This document shows positions 15,001 through 63,965 of a stretch of DNA of 64,000 nt, one piece after another. Location of the stretch: the NCBI GenBank assembly GCA_002633005.1, contig NMRA01000569.1, forward strand, positions 186,001 to 250,000, read 5' to 3'. Within the stretch, counting starts at the first letter, position 1; each line of letters starts with the position of its first letter. Under the pieces are notes generated by a model. That model saw nothing but the letters and a program-made list of their open reading frames with translations. It did no database searches and was not told the origin of the DNA. The DNA is from Phoronis australis (lineage: Eukaryota; Animalia; Phoronida). A program made the position numbers and the translations under genes.

Positions 15001-15567
15001 CCCGACTAGAAATTCCACGGGTGCTTCACTTCAGCCGTCCATAGCAAACATAAAACTCAATAAATTTACACAAAACAGGGGTTCAACAAACCATGAAGAA
15101 TTGTTCTTTCTCCCAATACAATTCTTCATGGTTTGTTGAACCCTTGTTTTGTGTAAATTTATTGAGTTTTATGTTTGCTATGGACGGCTGAAGTGAAGCA
15201 CCCGTGGAATTTCTAGTCAGGAGTGTCCAACCTTGTAGTATTATATGTAGTGTATTGGGGACGATCAGAAGCTGAGGACGCCTGTGATCTAAAACAAATC
15301 TGTGAAGCATAATTCGCCGAAAAGCTTCTAGCGTACAAGGGTCCTATGGGGCCATCACTGCCTCTACTGCTAAGTAGAGACAGTGACAGTGGAACTATCA
15401 AAAGTTACTAGTACTAGTTGGCTACTTAGCACTTTAAGTTTAAGTATCCCTGACCCTGCCCCTGGCCTGGGCCTGGGCCAGGCAGCCTACGCTACATCGT
15501 ACATGTGTATATCTTCGTGCTATGACACATTACACATAGCATGTACATACCTTCCTTCACGTGGCAT
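71..15567 (-). CDS. DDX46: DEAD-box RNA helicase DDX46/Prp5, 5' portion (gene continues beyond the left edge)
   Basis: Exons 15567-15551 (MPREGR), 11840-11628 (RS domain), 9664-9508, 1843-1616 (EEEMQKRRERIEKWR...WNLEDDDDDD...DPLDAFMQ), 262-71 (...KGELMESNADAME). GT-AG introns with consistent phases; motifs match the DDX46 N-terminus. Confidence 0.93.
3079..3760 (+). pseudogene. Decayed LINE ORF1-like sequence (coiled coil + RRM-type)
   Basis: Frameshifted pieces: coiled coil (IDSLNRKVSELQESLDNSEQYSR), then ELDRTHRLG..KPRPIIAKF, IFINENLT, RDGKIFIK, typical of L1-type ORF1p in invertebrate LINEs. Confidence 0.7.
4540..5326 (+). mobile_element. Helentron-associated (HINE/DINE-like) non-autonomous element
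   Basis: Diverged internal repeats (aaaattgccactaggnggcgc), (GACG)n microsatellite, terminal stem-loop ccacatat-aa-atatgtgg then ATAAAAA. Inverted copies of the end at ~22441-22477 and ~23087. Confidence 0.65.
5830..8940 (+). mobile_element. Degenerate Tx1/L1-clade non-LTR retrotransposon ORF2 in a DDX46 intron
   Basis: Endonuclease motifs (GDFNLVLD ~6100, RLDFFL ~6285, YRSDHS ~6355); RT C-terminus (GLKINNSKT, WCRRKLTIFGKVTVLKTLVLPK); zinc knuckle CTFC..TLEHLFFEC ~8570. Many stops and a deletion of the RT core. Confidence 0.85.
7227..7735. mobile_element. Solo LTR inserted into the LINE
   Basis: Starts TGTAAAG, ends GTGACA, flanked by 5-bp TSD ATATT (7222-7226 and 7736-7740); LINE homology resumes after it. 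Confidence 0.8.
9905..10132. repeat. 39-bp minisatellite, ~6 copies
   Basis: Unit taataaagggttgtcagttaatattggcttggtgcaagg. Confidence 0.95.
14936..15286. mobile_element. Fold-back MITE, 351 bp, near-perfect palindrome with 8-bp TSD
   Basis: Arms of ~167 bp (cacaggcgtcctcagcttctgatcgtcccc...); TSD ATCTAAAA at 14928-14935 and 15287-15294; orphan copy of the terminus at 16119-16153. Confidence 0.88.
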
Positions 15568-18900: not shown

Positions 18901-21900
18901 ACTGCTATATCTGACCAGTGTCGGGGTTTACACCTCGTCAAAAATAAGTTCATTTAAAATTATTTATCAAGTTCTTCAATGGTTTTTTCTGTCATTGCGC
19001 ATATCTCTGATCACAGGTTTCACGTTTAATCAACTTGTGACAAGTCTCGTCACTATATGTTGCGGTTCTCAAGATTTAGCGCCTGTCTTACGACAGTGGA
19101 TTGGTTTGATTGGCTACTTTAAGTTTCTGGCCTTCTGTTAGTAGCTAATCAAAGCAATCCACAGTCGTAAGAATGGTGCTATGATCTCGAGAACCACGAC
19201 ACGTGACAAGATTGAACTTGTCGGAAGGTGATTCAACATGGAGTGAATGAGGGTTACGGACCTTTTTGTCTCTCATGAAGAGTAAATGAAAAGGTGGGTG
19301 GAAGTAAGCGTCTGTGTCTTCAATGAAGCATATGTATGGGTATAAGATGATAATCACAAAGTATTTCAAATGACGTCACTTAAGTTAGGCAAGGACAAAC
19401 ACAAGACTGAGCGAAGTGCATGACACTTGAAAAAAAATAGTATGGAATTGTAAGATTTGTGTCCTTTGGAGTTTTTATTCATCAGCAGGCATGATTTCAC
19501 ATAACTTCCTCAAAATGGTATCCAGGGAGAGAAACTCGTTCGAACCATGACAGATTTTCATGGATATGTTTAAATTATGTTGACTAAATTGTCTCCAGAG
19601 TCATGTTATATGTTTAAAACTCCATGTGTATATATGCATGTTTCATACGATTTTATTTGCTGTATTTTGAGATTAGTAACTTAATGGGGGTGTACCTTTG
19701 CCCTTGTATGCCTGTGGCAGTACCAAGCAATGTAATTGCCTAGTTCTTACTAGTTACATAGAATCACATCTGTTGACGAATAAAAGGTCTAAGGGACACA
19801 AATTCCACCTGATATCTTTCTGGTTAAAAATGTTGAATTGAACAGAATAGCGGGTTAAGATATGTTTGCGTGAACCTCGACTGTTTTTCATGGATATGTA
19901 CAATCGTGTTGACTACCATAAATTGTGTCCAGATTCATGGTATGTGTTAATTGTAACTTGATCAATGTGTATATAGGCGTGCTTCATTGGATGTTAATGG
20001 CTGTATGTTGAAAGGAGTAACCTCAGTGGTTGACGTTAACACTAACTCGCCAAATGTGACCAAACAAAATGTGAGGTCGCCTAAACTGACGTCTGAAATT
20101 GTTCCATTCTCCGTATTAACTACACATGCCTTCCACTTCTCCTCATAAATGTAGGATATTTAACTCGATTCATCCTGCCAACGGAGAACGCAGATGATCG
20201 GATACACTGGAGGGTGGCATGTGTTTCATGGTCTGACCGTGCTCGATTTGTGCTGAACAGTACTGACTTCCGTCTGCTTACTTGTAATTTAAGCATGCGT
20301 TTGATGTGTCCTGACTGCTGAGGATAGCAAATGCGCTGATTTCACAAAATAAATATAAAAATTGTGAACCATAGGTATCAAATCTAGGAAATATGTTATT
20401 AATTTAAGTTAGGAAGTTACAATGAATTGTAACAAATTTCAGGGGAATCTCTGTAGCTACTTATAATTTTTTCCAGGTCGCCAAACACAATCTGAGGTCC
20501 GCAGGTTGCCAAATCGAGCACTGAAGTTTTGATGGCAGTATATTATCACCTGTGAACACCGCATACATATACTTGTTGATTTATATATCATGGAGAATAG
20601 TATTCATTTGAAATCTGTCTCTCAAATGTAAAATTTTGTTGTAACTCTGGTGTTTCTACCTTTCAGTGGGTGGTCGAGGTCGGGGCTTCAGCCCCAGGGG
20701 AGGTGGTCGAGGAGGATTTGGTCGAGGAGGTAAGGGACTTTGAGGTTATGACGTGGAGTAGTAAGGACCCTGCAAAACTGTTCAAATTTGGCTTACTTAG
20801 GAACATCGTGTCTCAGATTGTTATGAAACTTAGATACTATATTTTCTGCACTGTTCTCCATAATATCTGTTGGGTCCATATTGGCTTGAGGGCTATCAAA
20901 AATAGGACTTGTGTGTTTTTTATGAAAAATTCCTGAAGTTGTTCTATAAAATGAAATGGAGTGATAATTAAGAAATTAACAACGTTTTTGCGATTTCACC
21001 TTGAACATTTAATATATTGAATGAAATTAGGTTGTGTTGTTGATACCATTATTTTGTTCTGAATGTACCTTTCACTTTATGGTAAATTTTACTAAAAAAA
21101 CATGGTCACGTGATCCACCTAATGGCAGTTTGGTACAGAGTCATAACTCAAATTTTATAGGTTTTCTATTTTCTAACAGTTTGTTGTTACATAAGAACAG
21201 GCCCTACAAATTGACATGTCATGGTATATCCATTGTATTCACTGATTTTGGTCATAAACCGTAATCGGACCTCATCTGAAAATGGAACAACTTGAAACCA
21301 ACTTTATTGCAACATGTATTTTGAAAGTGTTTCTTCTTGAAATTATCTTTTCTGTTGAGGTGAAGAGAGTCTATGTCAATTTATAGACAAATGCTCTTGT
21401 GGCAATTTCAAAATATTAGGTTGTCCATGCTATGTTTGTCAGCTTAGGATCTACATAAAGTTTAGTATTATGTTTTTGCCATGAATAGAAAGGCTCTAAG
21501 TAATACTGCTCCCCCTCGTGTTTCTTGAGGCTTCAAGAATCTTGATGAAGTTAGGTGGCTATGTTTCTATTTTCTTCATCTAGTTCTCTACCCTTCCCAA
21601 ACTTTAGAAATTTCTTCATGAAACATGTAGTTATGTATGTAATTTGGGGGGGAGGAGCACACACCATTTGTAGGTGAAATGTGATGCTTTTCACCATTGA
21701 CTTTATATGGTATTTACAGGAGGTTTCAGAGGTGGCAGAGGTGGTGGAGGCCGGTTTGACAAATATGCAGATCAGGGACCACCAGAGGAAGTGATGGGTA
21801 AGCACTGTAGCTCACTCTTGTTTCACACCTGTCCATATACCTGGTTTACAATAATATCAGATTCACTGTATTCTGTTGTCCTTGACACGGGGCTTGGAAT

Positions 21901-24900
21901 TTTCCGCGGAAACGCGGATTTCCGCTTTTTTCAAATGTGCTGTCCGCTTTTTTTATAATATTTCCGCGTAAAAAAAAATTGGATTTGATATAAAATTTCC
22001 GCGGCAAATTCCTTTCTTACCGCGGCGTCGCAGACGACATTCACCTCGAAAAGCGGAAGTTGCTCTTTATGTTTCTGAGGAACGTAAATTGTCAACATTG
22101 CACCTGGGGCACCTGGGACAGCGTGGTGGGATTTTCAATGGCGTCTAGTGTTATCGTTAAGCGCGGCGACAAATACTACTGCTCTGCAGCCAAAAATGTG
22201 TGGGGTTGGGAGTGGACGGGCGAGCTAAGAGCTAAAAGGACGCAGACGCAAGGTACTGATGGTGGTAACGTTTTTTTTTTTTTTAGTCTTCCCGATTTTT
22301 TTTGTCGAGGAAAGGTTCACATCCACCATTTCCAAGGCATGATTTGGGCCGTAAAAGTTTTCGCGTTTTTTGTCATTGGTCATTCCAAGCCCTGTTGACA
22401 ACTTGTTGTGTTTGAAGAAAGCTTTGTCTCAAAGAGTATTTTTTATGCGCCCACATATTTATATGTGGACGCATTATTTGTAGTGTTAGTAGTTGAAAAA
22501 TAGTTTGATAATGACTTTGTTCGTTAATAGTGAAAGACGGGGAAATTCAAGTAATGTCCTGAAAACAAGTCGTGTGAAGTTAAGTACCAGGCTAAAAATT
22601 TATGTTTTTTTCAGAGGTTGGCTCTTATGTTCACCCATCGGAGGATGATTTGGTTTGCAAGTGCACTCTAGAAAAAGTTCCACATTTCAATGCACCGATA
22701 TACCTGGAAAATAAACAACAGATAGGAAAAATAGACGAGATCTTCGGACCCATCAGAGACTTTGTATCCTTTCATTATTAATTTTGTGTTATACAAAAGC
22801 TTGATAGTTACTTTGTAACATTCACGTTGAATAAGAATATTTCATTTTCTGCATAATTGTGATACCCTTGTGGTCTAAATCAGATTTTATGACCATCATA
22901 ATGGTCAGTGGTCTTATTTTTATAATTTTGTTTTCTTAACACAGATCAGTATTTTTCAGTAAAGTTGTCAGATAATGTGAAAGCATCATCATTTTCCAAA
23001 AGTCAGAAAGTAAGTTTATTATGAAGGCCAACAAGTTTGAATGTCGACACTCACTGTGCGTATTCACAGGCTTGTGTGTAGTTCAGTTTTTATGCGCCCA
23101 CATATTTATATCTGTCCGTCATCTCTGTCTTTGCGTCCGCAGCTGTATCTCCTAAGCCTCTTACAGGATCTTGATAAGATTTGGCAGACTTGTTTCTATG
23201 AAGCTGACGACAGATGACAACGAATTTCAGACGGATACGACTACCAGTGTTTCCCCTATTGGCAATTGTAGTTTTTTACGTTTACCTCTGTATCTTCAAA
23301 GGTCCTCAGCGGATTTTCATGAAGTTTGGCACTTAGGTATCAGAATTGGTTAAATGCACGACACTTTTCATTGTTCACAGTCTTTATTCCATTACGCTCG
23401 TACTTTCGGAACAAAACTCTACTCTCAACTGAACATAGATAAAGTAACTGACCTAGCGACATAATTAAAAGACACACGATATTTCAAAACATACTTGTTT
23501 CATTCTCAAATGAAGATAAAATGACGCAGTAATGCCACCACAGAGCATAAGCTGATGACACACACAGTGGGACACGGCGAGTTTGAAATACTGCAAAGAA
23601 GGACTAATGAAGGGGAGGTAACAGGAAAGTCGCGCAAACAAGTGTAACGTGCAGCGCGACCCTGTTTGCTACATGTGCCTCAGTTACCTAGGTCCTAGAT
23701 GGATCTTCATGGAATTTAGTATACATGTATTGCAGTTAAGGAAAGTACACCTTACATTGCAATTTAGGTATTCTTTGTGTGTGGCTCTATATCTACCAGC
23801 TTCCTTCATAGATTTTCATGAAATTGGACAAACACATGTATCAAGGAGACCAGAGTACTTTCTTTGTTTCAGACAAGTTTGACGTATACTGCACTGCCTA
23901 GGATTCTTTTTCATTATTTGTTATGTGATGCTATTCAACAGAAACATACTGTTTGCACTTAAGTCGTGGGGACATTTCAATGCTTTGTGTTTGTCTTGTT
24001 CACATTGTGTGAATATTGCCATTTTTGAAAAAATCCATGAAAAGTGGACAATTACCTTAAGATGGACATTTATTTGCAATTAAAAAGAAATAAAATTGGT
24101 GTCATTGTATACTATGTTTCATAATTTTGGCTTCCCATGTCAGTTTTGCATCATGCATAAAATCTTTTAGTTCTTTTATTTTGTTCGTTGTTCTACTCTT
24201 AATAAGTTGGTCTTTATAAAACATACACAACACATGCAAGGTTTTCATTGGCATTCTTCATTCTAATGTTGCTCAACTTTCCATTCTCGTGTTTTCAGTT
24301 TTTCATTGACCCTATGAAGTTATTACCACTACAGAGGTTTTTGCCAGGTGGCCAGACTCGAGGTGGTAGAGGTCGAGGTATGGTGGTTCACCTATACTTT
24401 ATTGTGTCGCATATTATTCAGTGACACGAAAAGGTGACACAAATATGCATTTCTGTTCAAGCAGTATTACATTGACTAATATTCTTTGGGACCTTGGCCT
24501 GCGACCACGAAACTTGACTCGTGATTTGAGTGCAAAACTGACCGATCGCATCTCGTGATGTTGAAAAAATTATTTGAAGCGTGGCACACGGTTCATGAAA
24601 TTTCGAGTAAAATTTAGTGGTCCTGCCCCTTTGCGTTCCTCTCTGGATTTAAGAGTTCAACTGCCATTTCCTTCTCAGTGTGAGCGGAACCTCAAAATAA
24701 GGATACTTAAAATGTTCAACTCCTGTGGAAAAAGTTTTTGAGTACAAGCAGTTGCATGTCAGAGTTAAACACAAGTGTGAACATTACATACAATTTACTA
24801 TTTAGAAGTAATTAAGGCTGTATTGAAACTGCTGCCTTTCTAGTTTGGCACACAACTTTTTTGATGACAACATTAATTCAGACCAGTCCTGTGTACAATC

Positions 24901-25428
24901 AAGACTGCAGTGGAGTATTCTGCCTGCTAGATTTGCATATTTTTTTAGAAAATTGCAGATTTTAGCCGAGAGGTGTGATGCGTAAAAGCAGGCATATGAC
25001 ACTGTCCATATGATTTCATTTTATTGAAGATCTGGAGTGATTCTTAAGATAATACTCTCGGGCCAGCAATTGATGGTAGAACTTTACCACCATTAGCAAG
25101 TTCAAAGCAGATTTTCACACTAGCCTTGAGTACGGTGTACTGATTTTAATCTTATGTTTCCCCAGCGGAACATATTCTCTCAGATGTGCTGCTACTAACG
25201 TTTGATGTTCTAGGTCGTGGTGGTGATAGAGGTCGTGGGGGTCGTGGCGGAGGAAGAGGCGGTGGGAGAGGAGGCTTCAGAGGTGGAAGTCGTGGTGGAT
25301 CCAGGGGTGGACGAGGTGGCTTTGGCGGACGAGGGGGTTTCGGTGGTAGAGGAGGATTCAGGGGCAGCCCAAGAGGTGGCGGAGGGTTCAACAGAGGTGG
25401 TGGAAACACAAGGAAAACATTTGATTAG
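15942..25428 (+). CDS. GAR1: H/ACA ribonucleoprotein complex subunit 1 (GAR1)
   Basis: Exons 20667-20729, 21720-21797, 22615-22763 ([38 protein letters not shown]), 22950-23009 (YFSVKLS), 24299-24377 ([15 protein letters not shown]), 25214-25428 (RGG tail, TAG). Gar1 core flanked by GAR/RGG repeats. The A of the ATG is inferred to come from an upstream exon ending at 15942. Confidence 0.95.
16620..18650. mobile_element. Probable non-autonomous DNA transposon remnant in GAR1 intron 1
   Basis: Subterminal-type motif (tac)gtccgtcacac recurs at ~16638, 16826, 18242 and 18455 around an AT-rich interior; boundaries uncertain. Confidence 0.35.
21888..22394 (+). mobile_element. MITE with C(A/G)GGGCTTGGAAT TIRs and 6-bp TSD, copy 1
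   Basis: TIRs cggggcttggaat / attccaagccctg; TSD TTGACA; homologous to 38534-39029. Confidence 0.85.
22764..22949 (+). other. U12-type (minor spliceosome) GT-AG intron of GAR1
   Basis: 5' site GTATCCTTT; branch site TTTCTTAAC at 22932-22940 about 10 nt before the AG; no polypyrimidine tract; boundaries fixed by the protein (IRDF|YFSV). Confidence 0.92.
23087..23360 (-). mobile_element. Truncated inverted copy of the HINE-like family in a GAR1 intron
   Basis: tttatgcgcccacatatttata and tccgtcatctc match the reverse complement of 5275-5326. Confidence 0.6.
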
Positions 25429-27209
25429 AAAACTTATCAACTTTCTGTTTACATACATTATTCAAAAGGTTGTACAAGATGTGGAGTTCAGTCTACTCAG
25501 TTTTGTGCCACGGACTTAGCAATACAGATACAAGGATGGAACAATAACTTGTGAAGTGTACTTTTATTTCGGTAGTGTAAAATGTACATATATGTAAGTG
25601 GTGTGTATATTAAAATTAAACACATTTTAAAGTACATTACATCATTGTCTCCACTTGCATTTACTCACTTATTTTCATAAAATTTTAACAACAAAAAATA
25701 TATCGTGAAATTGGATGAGAGCCTCAGGTTTAACTGAATTTGAACAATTGTCATACAATTGTAAGATTGCCAAAATGGCATGATAGACTGCAACAGGTCT
25801 ATTCTAGTTAATGACTAATATTCTTACATTAGTTTTTACAGAGATAGGGTGTGAATCATTAAAACTGCAACACGTTTCAAAAACCCACACTATCAGAACA
25901 ATTTTAAGACAGATGCACTGTGGGAAATGGGAATCCTGTGCACTCTGGCCTTGCGGGAAGTGTGGCCATGGAATGATGAGGGTATATGCAATCAACTTGT
26001 TCATTAAAACATACTGGGAGAAAAAGCACCTGAACACTTACAGGGATGCTGGTAATAGTGAAGAATGAATGCGCCGTTTTGAAAGTGGCTGTAAGCAGAC
26101 CAATCAACCTCACATTTCAACTGCCATTGAAACTGCATTAATTAAACAGTAGACATGATTTGTGAGTCTTGTTACTGTTCTGCACTTTTTGATGGAAGCT
26201 TGGTGGTTGGTTTTACAACTTGAGTTAAAGCTCTAGATATGACTTGAGTTGTTTGGAATGGCTTGTAGGTTGAGTTAGAACACTAAAAGGCATTCTGATC
26301 AACAGGAAGACATCTTGCTATCGTACAGTTAACTAAAACAGTGTTCCCCTTTATCTGGAAGAATATGTCCGATAACAACTCCAATCTTCCCCAGTTCTTC
26401 ACTAATAACAAAACGTGGAGAAGTATTGTTGGTGGTAGACATTTTCACATTATACTTGGGTCGATATCAAAATTGGTTTTTGAAGATGCATTAACAGCTA
26501 TAATTCAAGAGAAGTCCCCATATGATGAGCAAGAACAGTTAGGACATATCAATTCCTCCTAATCTCAAAGGTGAATGCTGTCAAAATGGAACCCCAAATT
26601 TCTGCATTTCAAAACAACACAGTTATTGAGTTAAAACACAATTAAATCTGCATGTACTAAGGAATAAGCCCATTCTAATTGAAAGCTACATCACCAGTTT
26701 CTGTACATGCTGTTCTGCTACACAGTGAGCAGATGAGCAGACTCGACTAAACACACAAGTACAAAAGTGTAAGAAAATCTGACTAATATTTTTCATTGTG
26801 ACTATATCTAAAGCTGCACAACATCACAACCATATCGTTCAAGGCCTACCTGATGCTAAATAACAGTGTTTTCATAACTTAAATCATAAGCACCAGATGT
26901 CCTAGAATGTTACGACATACATTGCTCTGTATGTCTCCAAGTCATACCCTCTTTCCCGTCTAAAAATACACCCACATGTTCATGTAATGCTAAAAAATCT
27001 CTTCAAAGCTACATGTAAAAGGTAGTTATCAGAACACTTGCTAGTAACTTTCCCAAAACTCTTCAACCAAAGGCATAGAGTAATTATGAATGGAATGTTA
27101 GGCAAGGAGGCAGTTCCTAAATATGCACGTCACCTGCACAGGTTTCGTCACTTTCCAATTGCAGTGTGCTGTGCACATTTGTTGAAAATTAAACTGGCAT
27201 TTACTCCGT

Positions 27210-42261: not shown

Positions 42262-42690
42262 AAAATGTCTTGTATCTATGTAGCATACTATCTTGATATT
42301 GAAATGTCCTGTGTCTATGATGTTCATTATCTTGATATTGAAATGTCTTGTAATGTTCAGCATCTTGATATTGAAATGTCTTGTATCTATGATGCTCACT
42401 ATCTTGATATTGAAATGTCTTGTATCTATGATGTTCAGTATCTTGATATTGAAATGTCTTGTATCTATGTAGCTCACTATCTTGATATTGAAATGTCTTG
42501 TATGTATGTAGCTCACTATCTTGATATTGAAATGTCTTGTATCTATGATGTTCAGTATCTTGATATTAAAATGTCTTGTATCTATGTAGCTCACTATCTT
42601 GATATTGAAATGTCCTGTGTCTATGATGTTCATTATCTTGATATTGAAATGTCTTGTATCTATGATGCTCACTATCTTGATATTGAAATT
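42262..42690. repeat. 39-bp minisatellite, ~11 copies
   Basis: Unit tatcttgatattgaaatgtcttgtatctatg(at/ta)g(t/c)tca; explains the repetitive ORFs on both strands. Confidence 0.95.
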
Positions 42691-42958: not shown

Positions 42959-49815
<6,857 letters not shown>

Positions 49816-51331: not shown

Positions 51332-52856
51332 GTGGAGGCTTTGTTAACCCATTATTTCTTGTTGTTTAATGGGTAATTACTGAGTGATCACACTGTGTGT
51401 CCATTTTAGGATCATGCAGAACTATTTTGGTATTATTAGTATTTCTTTTTGTTCATTGGACAGCTCTGACAGTCTTTGCAGTCTGAGTAACATTTCATGA
51501 CATTGCAGCCATTTGTTTTCAGTTAAATTTAAATTTTGTAATTGTGTCATTTGTATAGATGTGGCGGCAGTAACTGCATTGTAAATTGAAAAACATCACT
51601 AATTTCAATAGAGTTGGCAAAATAATTATGAAATAAACGAGCAACTAAAAATTACCAGGTGCTGATAATGAAACTATGGAAATTTCCACGAACCAAGAGA
51701 TTGGTGATTCATAGGAGGTAAACGATTGAGTAAACTGAAAATTGTCACAGTTTGCTTTTGTTTGTTTTCATTGATTGTGTTACCCATAGTGTTTGTGTGC
51801 TGGTTGTTTGAATCTAGGACATTGCTTACTGAACATTCACAAATTACATTGTATTGAAAAATCACCTTTTCTGTAGATAACCTCAAGCACTAACTTTAAT
51901 TACTAACATCTAATAGATATAACCATTACAGGCTTGTTTGACATGTCTAGGTAGTTCATTTTCAAGTTATTTTAATCTTGTTTTCACATAACAGTTGGTA
52001 CCCTGATGCTTTTACTAAAAGCTGCATTTTTAGTGCTGTGCTGTGTTGCCGAATCATTTCATATTATTTATGCATGGATATTGTCAAGTCTGGAGAAACT
52101 TTTTACAAAGATTTTGAACAGTTTGATTGTTAGTTAATACGTCAAATAATTTTGCTGATAAAAAACATTCTAAAAAGTTAATGTTCTGGGTATTTTACCA
52201 ATAAGTGTTTAACTTTCTGCTCCACCAGGTGGTAGAATATGAACACGAATACCAAAATGTTGCCAAACAAGGTATTCTGAAACATTTTAATCCAGTATAA
52301 TACAAATATAATGAGAAAATTATAAATTATTAAATATAGTAAAGGCATATCGTATAAAATGAACAGTCATTTGCAGACTTGTTTATTTTTGTGACATCGC
52401 ACAAGGCAAGAACAAACTATGCTTTAATGGATTTTTGTTTACATTTTGATTTAATTTGAAATTTGTAATAAAAATTAGTTGAGTTTGAGTGTTTAAGTAT
52501 TAGTTTATGCAGTTAGCGGTTTTATTTACTCTCAGTAGATTACATGGATTCATACACCAAGTGACACCAACATTTGGTTTTAAACCCCAGTTCTGATAAA
52601 CACTACCTGAACGGCATAGTTCAATCTGTCAAAGTTGTTTGATCCGTCACTCGTGTTTGATACCGAATTGTAAAGTACAATGTGGTGGTTTATGTTCATT
52701 ATGAATTTACTGTATTGATTATTCGGAATGCTTTATTTCACATTGTTATTTTTGGGCCTTTTTTCGTGTCTTAAAGCAGTTATAAGCCTGCATTCCTTCA
52801 AAGAAACTAACTTTTGACTTAGATCAGTGCAAAGAACTTTCTGTTTTTGTTCGAGA

Positions 52857-53092
52857 GCAACTTGTGGAGCCAATCTTGACCAACTTGTAGAGCCGGTCTT
52901 AACCAACTTGTGGAGCCAGTCTTGACCAACTTTTGAAGCCGGTCTTGACCAACTTGTGGAGCCAGTCTTGACCAACTTGTGGAGCCGGTCTTGACCAACT
53001 TGTAGAGCCGATCTTGACCAACTTGTGGAGCCGATTTTGACCAACTTGTGGAGCCGATCTTGATCAACTTATAGAGCCGGTCTTGACCAACT
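52857..53092. repeat. 23-bp minisatellite, ~10 copies
   Basis: Unit ccaacttgtggagccggtcttga. Confidence 0.95.
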
Positions 53093-53360
53093 AATAGAGT
53101 CAGCTCTTGAACAATAACCATCTACCAGTTCTTTACAAGCCCAGAACACATGTATTTTGACTAAGGAACAATTTGAGACCAAGTTTATGATGGTAACTGG
53201 TCTAAATCAAAAGTTGGTTTTTGTGACGCCAGGCAGGTTTAGAGGCACTTATAAGTTTTTATTTTTGTTTGTTGTATGTTATGAATAATGTCAAGAATGA
53301 AGTTCTCTCGGAGTCTTTCAAGGGTTGCTAAAAGCTACTTTTTATTTTCCATGTTAACAG

Positions 53361-55912: not shown

Positions 55913-58900
55913 TTAAAACACTCTGTGTGCACACTGTAGGATGCAGTTAATAACTTGGTCATGATACTTTCTCGTTGGTGAGCCAATGTCCAGGCAGATA
56001 TCAACGTGTCCACAACCAGGAAGGACTTTGAAATCTATTGGCTGTTCTGGAAGATTCCTATGAACTGTGTCCACAAAGAGCGTGCTGGAGGTTATTGGCA
56101 CTATGCTGTCATTGGTTCCATGGAGCAACACGATGTGGGGAAGGCTGCAATTAGAACAACACACGCTATTTTGTCTTATGCCCAAGTAAACTTTCAATTT
56201 CAAAGCTTCAAATTGCTCGTTTGGTCAACCTAAAAGAAAGGCAATGTGCATTTTATTACCTTTAACGCAGAACATCAGTGTAAAAATCAAAACAAATCGT
56301 TTTTTTATTGACAGAAATTTGCTTAGAAACAGGAGCACATCCAGGATTTTGAGTTAAGGGGGGGCAGGTCAGAGTATTAGCCAGGATTTTGCCCATTAGA
56401 CATTCGCACTCCCCGAAGTGCCAAATGGAATATGGGAGAATTTTATGGGGGCCATGGCCCCCCACCTAAATCTGCCTCTGAGAAATTCTTCAACATTTAC
56501 TAAGTCACCACAGCAAAAACCCACCTCCTACTCATCAGGAAGCACCACGGCTAGTTTTGTTTGAAACTCATTTTGGGTGTCTGTGTCAATGTTTAACATT
56601 AGTTTATGCTTCAAAAGGCAACAAACTAGGCCACAGAACCTAAACATGGTAGCAAAAGGATAAAACAGGCTTTGCAGGTGTTCATTTACTGCTGCAAGGG
56701 ATAATGTTTCTTTTGTAATCACATAACACAATATTTTTCACTCGTAAGAAAAATCATTTCCAAATTCAACATGCACTGAGTACAGTAACTTCAGAGAATA
56801 AACCGGTATTTGGTATGTCTTGTTTTTACATAGAATTACTTGTCAAACAAAAATGCACATCCAGTTATTAAGTTCATGTCGCAATCTTACCAAGAGTTGC
56901 TTGGCAAATCTTGAACAATTTGAACAGGTGAGAACCTGTGGAAGTGCTCCGGACCGTATGAGCACCGGCCCAGGGCTTTGATGTCTTCAATGCCTTGCTC
57001 GTAATAATAGTGGTATTGCTCACCCACGTCATAAACACCTGCAATACCTAACAAAAGCAAAACACAAACGTACACAACAACAAAACTTAACACAAATATG
57101 GGCATCTCAAAGGGCCAGCGTTACAGGGTAGACTAATGGCCAAGGATGAGGCTAACACTGTCATGGCAACACCATCGGACAATGGTCGATTTTCAGTAAC
57201 ATACTGTACCAGTGCCTGACAAGAATTGGTTTTTGCTCGATCCTTTGTGTACTGTAGATTGTCAATTGAGAACAAATTTGAATTGACAAGAGTACAGTAC
57301 AGAGAGTAGACACAGGGTACTCCTCTAAAATATGCACGACACTGGCCTGTTGACATTATGTGCCCGCACAACTTCCAGGTAACGGTTACCTTGCATTTCT
57401 AGGTAGGTCTTGCACAGTGATGGTAGGTGAATAGCGATTAAAGCATGTTGGTCCATGCATGGCTCTGGACATACCAGAGAGATCCTCCACACACCGCATA
57501 TACTCGTGCTGGTAATGCTGACCAATATTATACACTCCTGCAAGACCTTCGAATGGACACCAACAAGTTAGGGCTGCTAGCACAAAACTTTAAAATAAAC
57601 GGTATGTTATAGGTTTGAGTATGCTTGAGATGTTTTCAACAGTGGCCAGGTATCCAATAGAAATCAACAAAAGAAGCAGTGGCAAGGTCAGATAAAGGTC
57701 AATTTGGTCCTCACGCAAGTCTTCACAAACACATACCTATCATTAATCATGCTTTCACAAACTGCTTACAAGAATACCCAACCAGATTACTCTTAATGTG
57801 GGTAATTGGTAGATGCCCAGATTATATAACTATTAAGAAAAAGGACAACAATATCCGCTAAATTCTAAATATTTAAAAACATAATAAATCACAGTACATA
57901 CTTAAGAAAAAACAACAATGAACTCTACTGCAAAAAATACTAAATAAAAGAAATGATTAATTTCATCATCCATCCCTACCTATGACAGCACGAATAGACT
58001 GCATCATACAAGCCACATGTGAGCGTGGTCTGTAGTCAGACACTGACTCGGTGGTCTCCCCATTTTCTTCTGCCTCCTTTCCACCATTGAGTTCAACCAC
58101 TTGGACACTGCTACCACTACTGTCAGACAACAGTGGCTGCTGATTACCACTACTGGTTGGCTCCATATTATCACCGGTCGGTTGGGTGATAACATTCAGA
58201 GGAGCTGGAGCTGTGATGACATTAAACCCCTGCAGACTGGCACCAAGACTTGCTTCCAATAATTCGTTATTAAGGCTCTGTGTATTCTGACTTTCACTCA
58301 ACACCACNTACTTCTAGTGTTTGACACTTACCTTTATTGTATTTGATGATTTGATTGTAACAAGGGCTGGAGGCCTAGTTATTGAATAAATATATATATA
58401 TATATGTATACCTATTATTAATCATGCTTTCACAAACTGCTTACAAGAATATCCAACCAGATTACTCTTAATGTGGGTAATTGGTAGACGCCCAGATCAT
58501 ATAACTATTAAGAAAAAGGACAACAATATCCGCTAAATTCTAAATATTTAAAAACAAAATAAACCACAGTACAAACTTAAGAAAAAACAACAATGAACTC
58601 TACTTCAAAAAATACTAAATAAAAGAAATGATTAATTTCATCATCCATCCCTACCTATGACAGCACGAATAGACTGCATCATACAAGCCACATGTGAGCG
58701 TGGTCTGTAGTCAGACACTGACTCGGTGGTCTCCCCATGTTCTTCTGCCTCCTTTCCACCATTGAGTTCAACCACTTGGACACTGCTACCACTACTGTCA
58801 GACAACAGTGGCTGCTGATTACCACTACTGGTTGGCTCCATATTATCACCGGTCGGTTGGGTGATAACATTCAGAGGAGCTGGAGCTGTGATGACATTAA

Positions 58901-61900
58901 ACCCCTGCAGACTGGCACCAAGACTTGCTTCCAATAATTCGTTATTAAGGCTCTGTGTATTCTGACTTTCACTCAACACCACAAAGGATTCTGAACCAGA
59001 CCCATGGCGTCCAGCGTCATTGGCATTGCCGCCCTCATAGTGATGTTCATCAAAAACAAAGGGGTCGCTAAGGTGGGGTGACACTGACTTGGGAGTATGT
59101 CTAGGAGTGACTGATCTTGGAGTCACCCGGCGCAGGAATACATCATGGAGTTCAGCGGGTAACTGTTTGTACAACTCCAACACAGCCATGATGCATAGGT
59201 GGGCCCCAGCAGAGTGGCCTATCAACATGATATGATCCTGAAGTAGAAATGTGGATAACAATGCCAAAGTACATAATTATATTTGTATTCAATAACGACT
59301 GCAACACAATTTAACATTTTTATTCATTTTTCAAACTATCATTAGTTCATTAAATATCAAGCTTTCTAAATCAGAATACTACAGCAAGGATTCAGTATCT
59401 TCAGCATGAAAACATAAAATACTCCTATGACAACACATTTCAATACTTAGTTTTAGTCGAACTTCAACATTTTCCAGGCAAATAAAAATTTACAATAAAG
59501 TTACAAAAAGCAACACCATTGTTGCTATCCAAGGGTGTATCATGATACTGAGGAGATATAGGTGACAATGACTGACAAAGTTTTGTCCATTCATCATGTA
59601 TTAACCATTTAGTATTATCTTCATAGTTATTTCAAACCTTATTTAGTGGCCTCCATTCTAAATCGTATATCAAAAAACCAGGCTTTGTCAACTAGCAACT
59701 AGTAAAAGTATATAAAATTATTTTCTGAAAGAAAAAAGATCAGGGATTACAAAAAATATGTTATAAATTTTGTGCCATTATTTTTATTACATTACCACTT
59801 TTTAAGTCAAAAATTCATTTTTAAGAAAGGTACATTCATACCAAAATAACCCCTCACACGATTTTAATGAGACCTTTTTTAAATGAAAACTTCACCAGTT
59901 ACCTCAAAAAACAGGAATTTTTGATTGGACTTTAGTTTGGTTCCAATGGCAAATCAACTCTTACAACGTAATGTACTTTAGTAAAAATAGCAGTCGTATT
60001 TGTCTTTCAACATTCACTCACAATGGCAACTGAATTTGCAGTGCATAATTAATTTAATTATCGCTAAAACATTTCATTTTCTGGTCATCTCCAGTCAGAG
60101 CAGGCTCAACTGTTGACCTACTTAAAAGTACGTCAACGGTTCATTGTTATACACACTATGAGCCAGGAGACTGATAAGAAACCATGTACAATATGGACAA
60201 CAGAAATCGGGTCTGTGGTTAAAGCTTATCATGAGCATGAGATCGAAACAGCGAAATGTCAAAATACCTGAATTAAGGAATTTGGGTGAGGATTTATATC
60301 TTTTCACAACTTGCTGTGTTTGTGAACACAAAGTCACAGAGGCATGCAGAAACTCGGAGCATTCGTTCTCAACAGTCGTATGCATAAAGACGAACATCTC
60401 CCTCAAGCATCAAAACTAGGTTTTGTTTTCATTTTCCCCGGCATCTTTCTAGCATATGTAAACCTTGTTGACTCAATATTATGGTGAGTGACAGCCCTTT
60501 AACCCTTGACCTCGGATAAGTTGTAAACAAATTTCCATGCGGTTGTGGGGTTCCAAGGTGGCTCTTCTAAAAAACGGCCAATTTTTGCAAAGAAGGTTTG
60601 AGATATCCTTAATACCCATGTGTAACCAAGATAAAGCAATCACTACAAGGCATACTTCTATAAGTTATTGCAGAGAACCATGTCGTGTCCAATGAAGTGG
60701 AATTTTTGTTAGAAAACCTACCCCCTTTCCTCCATACTGATCAATATTGTCATGTATCCAAGCTACACAGTCCACTACATCCTGTATCATGTCATCCACA
60801 TAGCCCTGTGATGATAAAAACACAACTTTCGCAAATGTGTTCAAATGACATAGCAAGGAAATAAGAAATAGAAAGCAATGTTAAGCATTGAAATGGTTAT
60901 TAGTATCATTAAAAGGGCCACTAGGTGGCGCACAATACGTCAGAGCTTTCTGAAAATGGAAAGTTGTAGTCATCTCGTTAACAGAAAAAAATATTTCCCG
61001 AATTTCATGAAAACCTATCAAGGATCTCCAAAGCTAGAGACAAACAAACAAACAAAATCATATTGAACAGCTTATTATTTAAAATGGCTTATTCTTATTA
61101 AAATGACATAGGCCTCGCTTTTGAGGTCCGAAATTCAATTTTTTGCCTATGTCATTTTAATAAGAATAAGTCATTTTAAATAATAAGCTGTTTTTGCCTT
61201 TACTAAGGAGTCGCACTGGTAGTCAGATCCGTCCACAAGAAGACATCATATGCTCTGAAGTTCATACGAATAAATTTGCCAAACTTTGCAAAGATCCTAC
61301 AACAGGTTTATACAGCAGCAGCAGATGTAACAAAAGATGTCAATAGGAGGCACCACTAGTCCGAAAATCAATGTCAGTCATGCTCAGAAGAAACACATCT
61401 GCCAATTTTCATAACGATCCCAGAGCAGTTTGACGAATACGGAGACAGACGACAGAAATAAGACTGACTCAAAAATAATAAAAAATACCACAAGGTGGCC
61501 CACAATCAGTCAAATCTATCAAAAAATTGAAAGTTGCTATTATATCAATAACAGAAACCTATTTACCAAAAAATATGAAAAACCGTAGAGGTACTCTAAA
61601 GACAAAGGCAAACATTAAAAACTAAAATTGCCACAAGGGGCACATCAGTGGTCACATTATCCAAAAGTTGTCGTCCATATAAAAAAATAATTGCTGGCGG
61701 TCTCGTACACGTAGTACCAGATGTGCGCAGGCCGCGCATGTGGGCCAATTGCACTGATCACCTAAAACTATTTTTGTGCTTTATTAATATATTGTTAAAA
61801 CTGAGCTGAGGAGCTAGAAACCTGACTCAAGGGTTTAGCAGTGCGGCCCAGTGGGACTCGAACCCACGACCTCAAGTAAAGAAGGCGGGCACCTATCACA

Positions 61901-63965
61901 CTAGTCCACACTGCCTCCTCACATCCATAGGAAATGCTCTATTTTACAAAGATCGTGCATAGTGTTCAGGAGATACAGCTGTGGACACAAAAATTGTCAA
62001 TAGGAGGTGCTACAGCAGTCTGGCCCACCCAAAAATCAACAAGCAGCTGACATTTGTAGTCTTATCAGGAACATGTGTACCAATTTCTATAATAATCCCT
62101 CAAGTGGTTTGGCAGATGGAAAGACAGATGCTAAAAATGTGCCATGACTAAGAGACTTGTACAAAACATTTGTCACAGAACAAGACAACATTAAGACATG
62201 TTGCCAAGTTAGTTGTTCATGCAGACACTGAGAAAAATGTTTCTAGATGATACAATTGGTCTAGCTAATCTGTTGTTACTTTGCAATGTGGGCCTGTGTA
62301 CTATAAATAAACATCATATAATCTCAATTAAACTAATATAAATTAACTAAAATCAAAATCTCAGTGTCTCAGTGTAATCAAAATATAATCTATATCAAAC
62401 ATAAATAGAACTTACTTTTGGATAAATAGAATAATTTGGACAAGCCACGACTGCATTCAGCCTATCAGCAAGCTGACAGCATACAGATGAATAAATACTT
62501 TTGTCCCCCGAAGACCATCCTCCACCATACACAAACACGACCACAGGGCAGGCACCATTGTTTGCACCAGACGATGTTGGGAAGTAAAGGTCTAAGTTAT
62601 TATTACTGCTTCCAAAGGAAACATCCTGAAATAAAATGGACATGTTTAATAAAGTATAACGCACAATCAAATTACAATTTTTAAAGACAGCTAGGTTACA
62701 TTTCAAACTTTGTCAGCAAAAAACAGTAATTCAGGTAGACTATACAAGAAATCTAGCTTGACTGTGAATGTATTAACTTGCCATGCTTGAAACCATGAAC
62801 AAAAATTACATAAAATGTCACACCAAAAACATGATTAACCAAGACAAGGTTGAAGTAAGAATTGAAATATTTGCACCATACAAGTCTATTAATGTTAAGT
62901 AACATCAGCAGTGACTCTTTGAAAACTACAACTACACATTTATAACCCTTAATCTTTTATGAACAATTTCATCAGGATGTTGGTTCAATAAATATTAACA
63001 TTTCCATCCACATAATTCAAAAATCAAAACAAAAATTACCAGAAATTTTCAGCCTCTTAAGACTCCAGTTGAATGGCCCCTAGATGTCGCTAAGCATTGC
63101 ACAGGGCTGTACAGACAGCTGTGATGGAAAGCACCACTGTCTCTGTTCCATGGATTTCCTCGACATGAAATCCAGACTGCCTCCTCATTAGACTCGGAGT
63201 CAATAATGATGGTGCCCGACCAATTTATAACATGGTTCAGTTGTAATGCATGGTCTGTAATGGCAGATCTGTGAACCTGTGTGAGGCATTTTTTTCAGAT
63301 ATATCTTGTAAAGGATTTATTGGACCACATGTTGGCTTTTTTACATTGATCATATATGGCTTTAGATTCCTGGTTTCCAAGCATTGACAACATGTACCAG
63401 GAAAGAATCCCAGATAAAAGTCCACAAATTCGCCATCACAGACAACGTGTTACAACAGAACCACATTGTAAATAGTTGGGCACCTCTCTCAATGATGGTC
63501 TAATGATTTTTCTCCATGTATCAAAGTCTGGATTTCACTTTAGATAAATCCAATGAACAGAGACAGGGTGCTTTCCATCTCAGTCTATTCAGCCCAGCTG
63601 TGCTACACTCAGCGATACCTACCAGCAATTATACAAACTTTAGTTTTAGGAAGCTGAACATTATTTTGGTTTAGATTTATTGAAACTTTTTACAATTAAT
63701 CACTAACCTTGATTAGCCTGTTTTCTCCAGCAGTATAATATAAGTATTTTGCTCTCAAAAAGAAACTTGTATATTTTAAGTACAGTAATTGTTTCAAAAC
63801 ATGCCAGTTGACTGCATAAACTTTCTTGGGATCTAATGCTCTTCTGTACTTCTTTTCCTCAATTGGCCAACCATACAGGAAGTTACAGAGTATGGCCACA
63901 GCATACGGTAACACCACTGTAGTCGACAGCGCAATCACCGCACCACGGTAAACCGTGCTTGTCAT
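55913..63965 (-). CDS. Isoprenylcysteine alpha-carbonyl methylesterase (ICME/PCME)-like alpha/beta-hydrolase
   Basis: Exons 63965-63708 (N-terminal hydrophobic helix), 62625-62416 (VVVFVYGGGWSSGDK...PNYSIYP), 60805-60722, 59237-58655 (LIGHSAGAHL nucleophile elbow), 57546-57390 or 57047-56891 (G-[LI]-AGVY), 56144-55913 (LLHGTNDSIVP...GCGH). Ser-Asp-His triad motifs of the HSL-like family. Confidence 0.88.
56891..57047 (-). CDS. Alternative exon B (157 nt) of the ICME-like hydrolase
   Basis: AG/GT flanked, phase 1 to 2; encodes GIAGVYDVGEQYHYYYEQGIEDIKALGRCSYGPEHFHRFSPVQIVQDLPSNS. Confidence 0.78.
57390..57546 (-). CDS. Alternative exon A (157 nt) of the ICME-like hydrolase
   Basis: AG/GT flanked, phase 1 to 2; encodes GLAGVYNIGQHYQHEYMRCVEDLSGMSRAMHGPTCFNRYSPTITVQDLPRNA. 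Confidence 0.8.
57738..58307 (-). repeat. Near-identical duplicate of ~58410-58982 (exon 3' half plus intron) abutting an N; probable allelic/assembly duplication
   Basis: Only a few SNPs (e.g. EENG vs EEHG); the copy stops exactly at the n at 58308 and has no splice acceptor. Confidence 0.85.
61066..61192. repeat. Hairpin with ~48-bp inverted arms
   Basis: aacagcttattatttaaaatggcttattcttattaaaatgacataggc and its reverse complement (1 mismatch). Confidence 0.85.
61790..61918 (-). mobile_element. tRNA-derived SINE head
   Basis: Reverse strand ggcagtgtggactagtgtgatagg...ggttcgagtcccac carries A and B boxes but no clean cloverleaf. Similar degenerate heads at ~14820-14885 (-) and ~45348-45425 (+). 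Confidence 0.6.
63085..63617. repeat. Degenerate inverted-repeat (MITE-like) element
   Basis: gatggaaagcacc..tgtctctgttc..tggattt..tgaaatccagact (~63124-63178) is inverted at ~63526-63580. Confidence 0.6.

What the first reader, a model, noticed from the sequence alone, without database searches (positions are those of the whole stretch)
56891..57546. Tandem homologous 157-nt exons: candidate mutually exclusive splicing in an ICME-like hydrolase
Seen: two exons of identical length (157 nt) and phase (1 to 2), both with intact AG/GT and open frames. They encode alignable but diverged peptides (GLAGVYNIGQHYQHEYMRCVEDL... vs GIAGVYDVGEQYHYYYEQGIEDI...). Since 157 is not divisible by 3, including both or neither frameshifts the last exon carrying the catalytic Asp/His. 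Known: the segment after the xGVY strand forms cap/substrate-binding elements in HSL-family hydrolases. Inference: an old, selectively retained switch giving two enzymes with different substrate pockets. I know of no description of this for the family.
Basis: partly seen in the sequence, partly recalled or inferred. Interest (0 to 1): 0.75.

Follow-up and report, generated by a model that had tools for sequence, protein, structure and literature searches.

The report
Duplicated exon swaps an enzyme's lid
An animal hydrolase gene splices in one or the other of two old duplicate exons, and the commoner copy has replaced the residues nearly all relatives keep, so the two proteins likely differ in what they bind or cut.

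Summary
Two 157-nt exons (A 57546-57390, B 57047-56891, minus strand) sit in one ICME-like (BD-FAE/HSL-type) alpha/beta hydrolase gene. Three RNA-seq runs show E4-A 18, E4-B 30, A-E6 7 and B-E6 41 junction reads. No A-B or skip joint is listed. Either exon gives a 507-aa protein with the Ser-Asp-His triad; both or neither truncates it. Five genomic loci of other animals carry the same exon, one copy seen in each; only two span both flanking introns. Synonymous sites between A and B are saturated, so the duplication is old but probably lineage-restricted. New point: A keeps all 10 near-invariant family positions, while B, the major isoform, replaces 6, yet diverges no faster elsewhere (20 versus 21 of 41). 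The exon maps to the predicted lid segment between strands beta6 and beta7. A downstream intron element is predicted to mask B's acceptor (-28.7 kcal/mol; 1 of 1000 shuffles). Substrate change, tissue switching and the RNA pairing are untested. Some A transcripts may retain the next intron. Verdict: a new, read-supported member of a known splicing class, with an unusually drastic swap.

The parts
63708..63965 (-). Exon 1 (coding part): start codon and hydrophobic N-terminal helix
   Evidence: joint 63707/62624, 13/10/24 reads; hydropathy 2.2 over 19 aa from residue 9
62416..62625 (-). Exon 2: oxyanion-hole-type GGG motif, BD-FAE match
   Evidence: (BD-FAE 28.5 bits, cut-off 26.8, on the ORF holding the exon)
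60722..60805 (-). Exon 3
58655..59237 (-). Exon 4: nucleophile motif GHSAG (Ser193) and a long Ser/Glu-rich insert
57733..58307 (.). Second copy of the 3' half of exon 4 and the following intron start; probable haplotype overlap at the N (58308), not a real duplication
   Evidence: 575 nt, 98.4% to 58408-58982; site 58064: copy-1 letter in 34 of 34, 19 of 19 and 18 of 32 exonic reads
57390..57546 (-). Exon 5A, 157 nt, residues 380-430; keeps the family signature His389, Glu393, Arg396, Ser402, Met404; minor isoform
57248..57301 (-). Predicted 18-bp hairpin in the 342-nt A-B intron; role unknown
   Evidence: -17.0 kcal/mol; best of 177 windows, z -4.1; the whole intron is not unusually stable (z 0.18)
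56891..57047 (-). Exon 5B, 157 nt; the same positions read Gln389, Tyr393, Gln396, Lys402, Leu404; major isoform
56666..56689 (-). Candidate docking element in the B-E6 intron, complementary to B's 3' splice site and first bases (57031-57049), more weakly to A's (57534-57548)
55913..56144 (-). Exon 6 (coding part): catalytic Asp443 and His477, stop codon; unspliced 3' UTR continues to at least 55400

Best explanation
Exons 5A and 5B are two old copies of one 157-nt exon that are each spliced between the same flanking exons, giving two 507-residue hydrolases with the same catalytic triad and likely different lids and substrate preferences. Shown: both exons join E4 and E6 in RNA reads; A keeps and B replaces the family's signature residues. 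Inferred: the exon encodes the helical insertion between beta6 and beta7 that covers the active site. Ile386, His389, Glu393 and Arg396 (i, i+3, i+7, i+10) would lie on one helix face, so B would present Val/Gln/Tyr/Gln plus Lys402 in place of a His-Glu-Arg set. A would keep the ancestral activity, which freed B to change. Inferred for the splice choice: B's U-rich acceptor wins by default. When the intron element at 56666-56689 pairs over B's acceptor, A is used instead. Both-in transcripts would be removed by nonsense-mediated decay.
For: Junction reads for all four joints and none listed for A-B or E4-E6. Frames and stops. pS saturated with pN 0.36 between A and B, and pN 0.33-0.38 between B and six other-species copies. 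Of 15 columns at least 70% conserved in 122 family segments, A keeps 14 and B 8. At the 10 columns of at least 90%, B changes 6 and A 0 (Fisher p 0.011); at the other 41, B changes 20, A 21 and 16 orthologues 14-26. Family HMM built without A and B: A 75.7 bits, B 46.3, single-copy animal relatives 79-90. AlphaFold2 model of the Lingula homologue (pTM 0.77): strand 377-383, then helices 389-398, 407-410, 422-426, then strand 437-443; best folds are HSL-like esterases. In the HSL esterase LgEstI, residues 207-216, which lie between Ser159 and Asp256, wall the substrate channel and mutants change activity (PMC9901739, passages); that this is the same segment is my inference from position. B acceptor duplex -28.7 kcal/mol, 1 of 1000 shuffles, top-ranked among all 30-nt windows from 57980 to 56891; four other acceptors of this gene and four single-copy relatives show nothing similar (6-93 of 100 shuffles). 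T content before the acceptor: B 0.62, A 0.38.
Against: A's share is 18 of 48 at the 5' joints but 7 of 48 at the 3' joints (p 0.019), and runs X2 and X4 have depth 1.3-8.5 in the A-B intron (X3 none). Some A transcripts may therefore keep that intron, which stops translation at once. Up to 2 A-B reads per run would not be listed. B exceeds A in all three runs, so no switch between conditions is seen. The docking element was found first and tested afterwards (18 site-by-intron comparisons), its pairing with A is not above chance (628 of 1000 shuffles), and it has no conservation test. No second copy was found in any relative. Two other animal proteins (Helobdella P0039, P0066) lose Glu and Arg of the signature, so it can decay without a known duplication.
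Confidence: 0.55

Rival explanations
1. B is an off-switch or non-catalytic form: it folds and keeps the triad but cannot bind the family substrate, so splicing sets how much active enzyme (isoform A) the cell makes.
For: B replaces five residues kept in 94-99% of 122 family segments, mostly non-conservatively. Precedents exist where one exon of a pair loses binding residues: ACTN1, ACTN4, ACAN (PMC9741552 section 10); CRMP, CG42249 (PMC7954323 section 9).
Against: B keeps frame, length and the structural residues Gly3, Tyr5, Gly18, Glu20, Gly31, Phe35, Ser39, Pro40 over saturated synonymous distance, and is the major product. Simple skipping would already give an inactive protein, so keeping a folded lid suggests it is used.
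Confidence: 0.2
2. The pair is tolerated redundancy rather than a switch: after duplication one copy drifted at the signature because the other covered it, and the A:B ratio is just a fixed result of splice-site strength.
For: Similar ratio in all three runs. P0039 and P0066 lose Glu and Arg too. Exon A has a rare Gly-to-Cys change (2 of 122) and two amino-acid polymorphisms against one silent one among the listed read differences. No relative with both copies was found.
Against: B is no more diverged than single-copy orthologues at the 41 variable positions (20 versus 14-26), and both copies have stayed intact for long enough to saturate synonymous sites. Free drift over that time would have erased one frame.
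Confidence: 0.2
3. The pair is an artefact or a dead exon: an assembly duplication, a pseudo-exon, or a piece of a neighbouring paralogue.
For: The same locus does hold a probable assembly duplication at 57733-58982.
Against: A and B differ at 74 of 157 nt, far beyond allelic difference; both are read and both join E4 and E6 in all three raw runs; one contig joins E4-B-E6.
Confidence: 0.03

Closest known systems
Tandem duplicated exon substitutions (homologous mutually exclusive exons) in enzymes, e.g. PKM, KHK, ACOX1, PFKP
   Same: Two homologous internal exons of equal length used one at a time, changing a region near a functional site while keeping the fold (PMC7954323 abstract and section 9; PMC9741552 abstract and section 10).
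   Different: [quoted passage not shown] Here one copy replaces 6 of 10 near-invariant positions and is the major form. The pair was not found in other animals tested.
ACTN1/ACTN4, ACAN, Drosophila CRMP and CG42249 exon pairs
   Same: One exon of the pair has lost binding or catalytic-site residues.
   Different: There the lost ligand or site is known or predicted; here the role of the His-Glu-Arg-Ser-Met set is unknown and the triad lies outside the exon.
Docking-site/selector splicing (Dscam exon 4, 9, 17; 14-3-3 zeta, Mhc, MRP1; srp; ATE1)
   Same: An element in the intron downstream of the cluster is complementary to duplicated sequence in the cluster, as in the model of PMC6071210 (passages). 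srp and ATE1 papers were seen as search listings only (one search gave no useful passage).
   Different: The complementary arm here is the 3' splice site and exon start itself, so it would mask rather than bring sites together; only the pairing with B is above chance; single-copy relatives show no such pairing.
Plant ICME / ICME-like and fish si:dkey-193c22.1 (Pfam BD-FAE, Abhydrolase_3)
   Same: GXSXG serine, Asp and His triad, GG oxyanion motif, hydrophobic N-terminal segment (PMC3017835 passages). Nearest named protein is Lingula ICMEL2, with weak tree support (SH-aLRT 81).
   Different: Prenylcysteine methylesterase activity is reported for Arabidopsis ICME only, in what I read; the animal names are annotation by similarity. 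This gene has a long Ser/Glu-rich insert shared with mollusc, annelid and brachiopod homologues and absent in the fish proteins.

Membership tests
Homologous mutually exclusive exons | Tandem, homologous, same length and phase | tested here: met
   157 nt each, phase 1 to 2, 22 of 51 residues identical, no gaps
Homologous mutually exclusive exons | Each exon spliced to the same upstream and downstream exons | tested here: met
   All four joints in each of three raw RNA runs
Homologous mutually exclusive exons | Never both, never neither | tested here: inconclusive
   No A-B or E4-E6 joint listed against 96 reads for the four expected joints, but the list starts at 3 reads in a run, and the A-B intron has reads in 2 of 3 runs
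Homologous mutually exclusive exons | Pair conserved in related species | tested here: inconclusive
   One copy seen in 5 of 5 intron-bearing loci of more distant animals; L002 and L005 span both introns, L003 and L004 the downstream one, L007 the upstream one. No close relative's genome was available.
Homologous mutually exclusive exons | Regulated by tissue or stage | not testable with these tools
   Three runs of one study, tissue not given; B exceeds A in all
Docking-site/selector mechanism | One element complementary to several competing partners | tested here: inconclusive
   B: 1 of 1000 shuffles; A: 628 of 1000. The joint test (0 of 100) is driven by B and by A-B homology.
Docking-site/selector mechanism | Conserved pairing with compensatory changes | not testable with these tools
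   No second genome with both exons
Steric or U2/U12 exclusion | Very short intron, distant branch point, or mixed spliceosome sites | tested here: not met
   A-B intron 342 nt with 16 AG dinucleotides before the acceptor; both donors are GTAA-type, not the U12 donor (U12 motif recalled)
ICME-like BD-FAE/HSL-type alpha/beta hydrolase | GXSXG serine, Asp, His triad and GG oxyanion motif | tested here: met
   Gly120 motif, Ser193, Asp443, His477 in both isoforms; the matching Ser, Asp, His are invariant in 36 aligned homologues
ICME-like BD-FAE/HSL-type alpha/beta hydrolase | Profile match | tested here: met
   Exon 2 ORF passes the BD-FAE cut-off; homologue P0027 gives BD-FAE 80.7 bits and falls with si:dkey-193c22.1 and ICME clusters
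ICME-like BD-FAE/HSL-type alpha/beta hydrolase | His-x3-Glu-x2-Arg...Ser-x-Met signature after beta6 (defined here from 122 segments): isoform A | tested here: met
   10 of 10 near-invariant columns kept
ICME-like BD-FAE/HSL-type alpha/beta hydrolase | The same signature: isoform B | tested here: not met
   4 of 10 kept; only 2 of 122 family segments keep as few of the 15 columns at 70%
Isoprenylcysteine methylesterase (activity) | Hydrolyses prenylcysteine methyl esters | not testable with these tools
   No assay; the name is by similarity

The most novel reading that the evidence does not exclude
A lineage of spiralian animals evolved a second enzyme inside one gene: exon B rebuilt the lid of an orphan ICME-like hydrolase for a new substrate and became the main form, while a single intron element that masks B's splice acceptor lets the ancestral enzyme still be made. 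The A/B pair would then be a natural swap that identifies the substrate-determining residues of the whole animal family.
Probability: 0.3. Interest if true: 0.72.

Novelty: new member of a known kind. Interest (0 to 1): 0.52.

Why it matters
The animal ICME-like hydrolases have no tested function in the papers I could search. This gene supplies two natural versions that differ only in one 51-residue segment, one with and one without the family's invariant residues, on an identical catalytic core. Comparing them is a direct way to learn what that signature does and what the family cuts. It also adds a read-supported case in which the commoner exon of a duplicated pair is the one that lost conserved residues, against the usual conservative pattern, and a testable candidate for splice choice by acceptor masking outside insects and vertebrates.

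Tried and rejected
No whole genome is held for this window, so paralogues elsewhere in the genome and repeat status of the hairpin and docking element could not be checked. Word-index protein searches with exon B and exon 1 found nothing (weak evidence by the tool's own note). The Atlas gave no usable hit for exon 1. No indexed holder was on record as RNA; the raw-read runs came in by species label. The metagenome scan used patterns that require Arg, Ser and Met of the signature, so it could not find B-type exons alone; 9 of 108 pattern matches were confirmed, of which L001 and L006 are intronless mRNA-like, L008 a distant intronless homologue and L009 a 12-residue match, all left out of the copy count. 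A second candidate pairing (57811-57823 with 57095-57107) scored 2 of 200 shuffles but was picked after the fact, so I do not count it. The docking element is not part of a longer inverted copy of exon B. Steric and U12 models rejected. dN/dS could not be computed because dS is saturated. The careful tree did not finish; the quick tree was used. The VIA structural alignment could not be run: machine busy. No isoform-specific structure was modelled. Three look-ups of earlier findings returned nothing. Literature searches for this case: searches gave 0 papers; one search gave 13 (plant or fungal by title), one search gave 7 (plant by title), one search gave 1 (a proteomics table row), one search listed 14 of 16, none on this family's splicing by title. 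Subscription papers are mostly outside this library; no supplements were read.

Full report
Observation. The two exons are as described: A at 57546-57390 and B at 57047-56891 on the minus strand, 157 nt each, AG/GT, phase 1 to 2, open. They align without gaps at 22 of 51 residues and 83 of 157 nt, with 26, 38 and 16 of 51 identities at codon positions 1, 2 and 3. The gene has coding exons at 63965-63708, 62625-62416, 60805-60722, 59237-58655, then A or B, then 56144-55913. Either choice gives 507 residues with Ser193, Asp443 and His477. Both exons in stops at 57031 inside B (436 residues, 138 nt upstream of the last junction); neither stops at 56103 in the last exon (392 residues). By general knowledge of nonsense-mediated decay the first would be a target and the second would not.

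RNA evidence. Three stranded raw RNA runs under the same species label (one study; about 18-19 in 100 of each run read) show E4-A 4/8/6, E4-B 8/10/12, A-E6 2/4/1 and B-E6 9/16/16 reads. No A-B or E4-E6 joint is listed; a joint is listed only from 3 reads in a run. A contig from a second study joins E4-B-E6. The three upstream introns are supported by 8-27 reads per run. So both exons belong to this gene and both are used, with B the major form. Against strict exclusivity: A's share is 18 of 48 at the 5' joints but 7 of 48 at the 3' joints (Fisher p 0.019), and the A-B intron has depth 1.3-8.5 in X2 and X4 and none in X3, while the first 300 nt of the B-E6 intron is almost empty. Some A transcripts may keep the A-B intron, which gives a stop one codon after A, or these are splicing intermediates.

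Assembly note. A 575-nt block is present twice (58408-58982 and 57733-58307, 98.4%) around the N at 58308. The second copy starts mid-exon. At 58064 exonic reads carry the first copy's letter in 34 of 34, 19 of 19 and 18 of 32 cases, so both letters occur in the RNA of one run, as alleles would. I read it as two haplotypes joined by the assembler; the true E4-A intron is then 433 nt.

Family. The exon 2 ORF passes the BD-FAE cut-off. Homologues are fish si:dkey-193c22.1 / ICME-like proteins and Lingula, Lottia, Biomphalaria and Helobdella proteins. A quick tree of 29 rows puts the gene among the brachiopod, annelid and mollusc proteins (96), next to Lingula with weak support (81). Plant ICME papers describe the same triad and motifs (PMC3017835, passages). 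I found no functional study of the animal proteins.

Age and spread. Five intron-bearing loci of other animals have this exon at exactly 157 nt with the same AG and GT boundaries. An HMM from 122 family segments, which scores B at 46 bits, finds no second copy in them. Only L002 and L005 span both flanking introns; L003 and L004 span the downstream one and L007 the upstream one; L002 and L003 encode the same segment. Ten further cluster members checked showed no alternative version (nine hold the segment). Synonymous sites between A and B are saturated (pS 0.83, pN 0.36). The duplication is therefore old in sequence terms but was not seen outside this lineage; close relatives could not be tested.

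Asymmetry. Of 15 columns at least 70% conserved among the 122 segments (A and B excluded), A keeps 14 and B 8; only 2 of 122 keep as few. His10, Glu14, Arg17, Ser23 and Met25 of the segment (94-99% conserved) become Gln, Tyr, Gln, Lys and Leu in B. At the 10 columns of at least 90%, B changes 6 and A none (p 0.011); at the other 41, B differs from the orthologue majority at 20, A at 21 and 16 orthologues at 14-26. The pooled orthologue figure (3 of 160) is biased low, because 11 of those rows helped define the columns and the five locus rows were found by patterns holding some of these residues; the A-versus-B test is not affected. B is thus not decaying generally; it has lost constraint, or been selected, at the signature in particular. 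Helobdella P0039 and unnamed P0066 also lose Glu and Arg, so such loss is rare but not unique.

Structure. An AlphaFold2 model of the Lingula homologue (36 sequences, pTM 0.77) places the segment between the strand ending at 383 and the strand starting at 437, as three helices at high confidence. Foldseek's best matches are HSL-like esterases (TM about 0.7 by target). In the profile alignment to kynurenine formamidase 4e11 the GVYD motif matches but part of the signature helix faces a gap, so the signature looks family-specific. In LgEstI the residues between nucleophile and acid wall the substrate channel (PMC9901739, passages). That the exon lines the pocket here is inference; no contacts were measured.

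How exclusivity may be set. Steric and U12 models fail: the intron is 342 nt with 16 upstream AGs and ordinary donors. B's acceptor is more U-rich than A's. An element at 56666-56689 is predicted to pair across B's acceptor and first bases at -28.7 kcal/mol (1 of 1000 shuffles; top window between 57980 and 56891). Four other acceptors of the gene and four single-copy relatives show no such pairing. The same element matches A's start in register but not above chance (628 of 1000). It was noticed first in a repeat scan and 18 site-by-intron pairs were examined, so the corrected probability is a few percent. My reading: B by default, A when B's acceptor is masked, decay of both-in forms as a filter. 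This resembles docking-site models (PMC6071210, passages) but is untested.

Comparison and verdict. Homologous exclusive exons near functional sites are a described class (PMC7954323 abstract and section 9; PMC9741552 abstract and section 10). Most keep their binding residues; a few lose them in one copy. This case belongs to that class and to its rarer drastic end. I found no description for this family in six searches of an open-access library. Confidence that both exons are alternatively used in one gene is about 0.95; that they give enzymes of different specificity about 0.55; that the docking element controls the choice about 0.3. New member of a known kind; interest 0.52.

Noticed in passing
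window 57733-58307 and 58408-58982: 575-nt near-identical block on both sides of the N at 58308; probable haplotype overlap that inflates intron 4 by 675 nt.
   Followed up: partly
window 58655-59170 (exon 4): Long Ser/Glu-rich low-complexity insert after the nucleophile helix, also in mollusc, annelid and brachiopod homologues, absent in the fish proteins; low confidence in the homologue model.
   Followed up: partly
P0039 (Helobdella) and P0066: Both lose the Glu and Arg of the exon-5 signature and group together in the tree (94); possibly a separate change of specificity in that annelid branch.
   Followed up: no
window 57248-57301: Strong local hairpin in the A-B intron (z -4.1, best of 177 windows); could be regulatory or a transposon remnant.
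   Followed up: partly
window 57811-57823 and 57095-57107: A 13-nt inverted pair that would loop out exon A. Two of the differences between the duplicated copies fall in one arm and keep pairing as G-U; a read variant at 57098 falls on the mismatch. Chosen after the fact, not counted as evidence.
   Followed up: partly
window 56339-56462 and about 61720-61920: Short intronic stretches hit by many reads from elsewhere on both strands: dispersed repeats; the second looks tRNA-derived by eye.
   Followed up: no
window 38308-27213, minus strand: Neighbouring gene with PH and RhoGAP domains.
   Followed up: partly
window 20600-25430, plus strand: Gly/Arg-rich exons at both ends of a gene that looks like GAR1 (name recalled, not tested).
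   Followed up: no
window 11908-1610, minus strand: Arg/Ser-rich exons resembling the start of the DEAD-box splicing helicase DDX46 (name recalled; the one piece scanned had no Pfam hit) with a LINE-like fragment at about 6500-8800 on the other strand (zf-RVT just under its cut-off).
   Followed up: no
window 14936-15286 and 45638-45999; 9898-10133, 42263-42689, 52855-53114: Two palindromes of about 350 nt (95% and 88%) and three tandem arrays.
   Followed up: no
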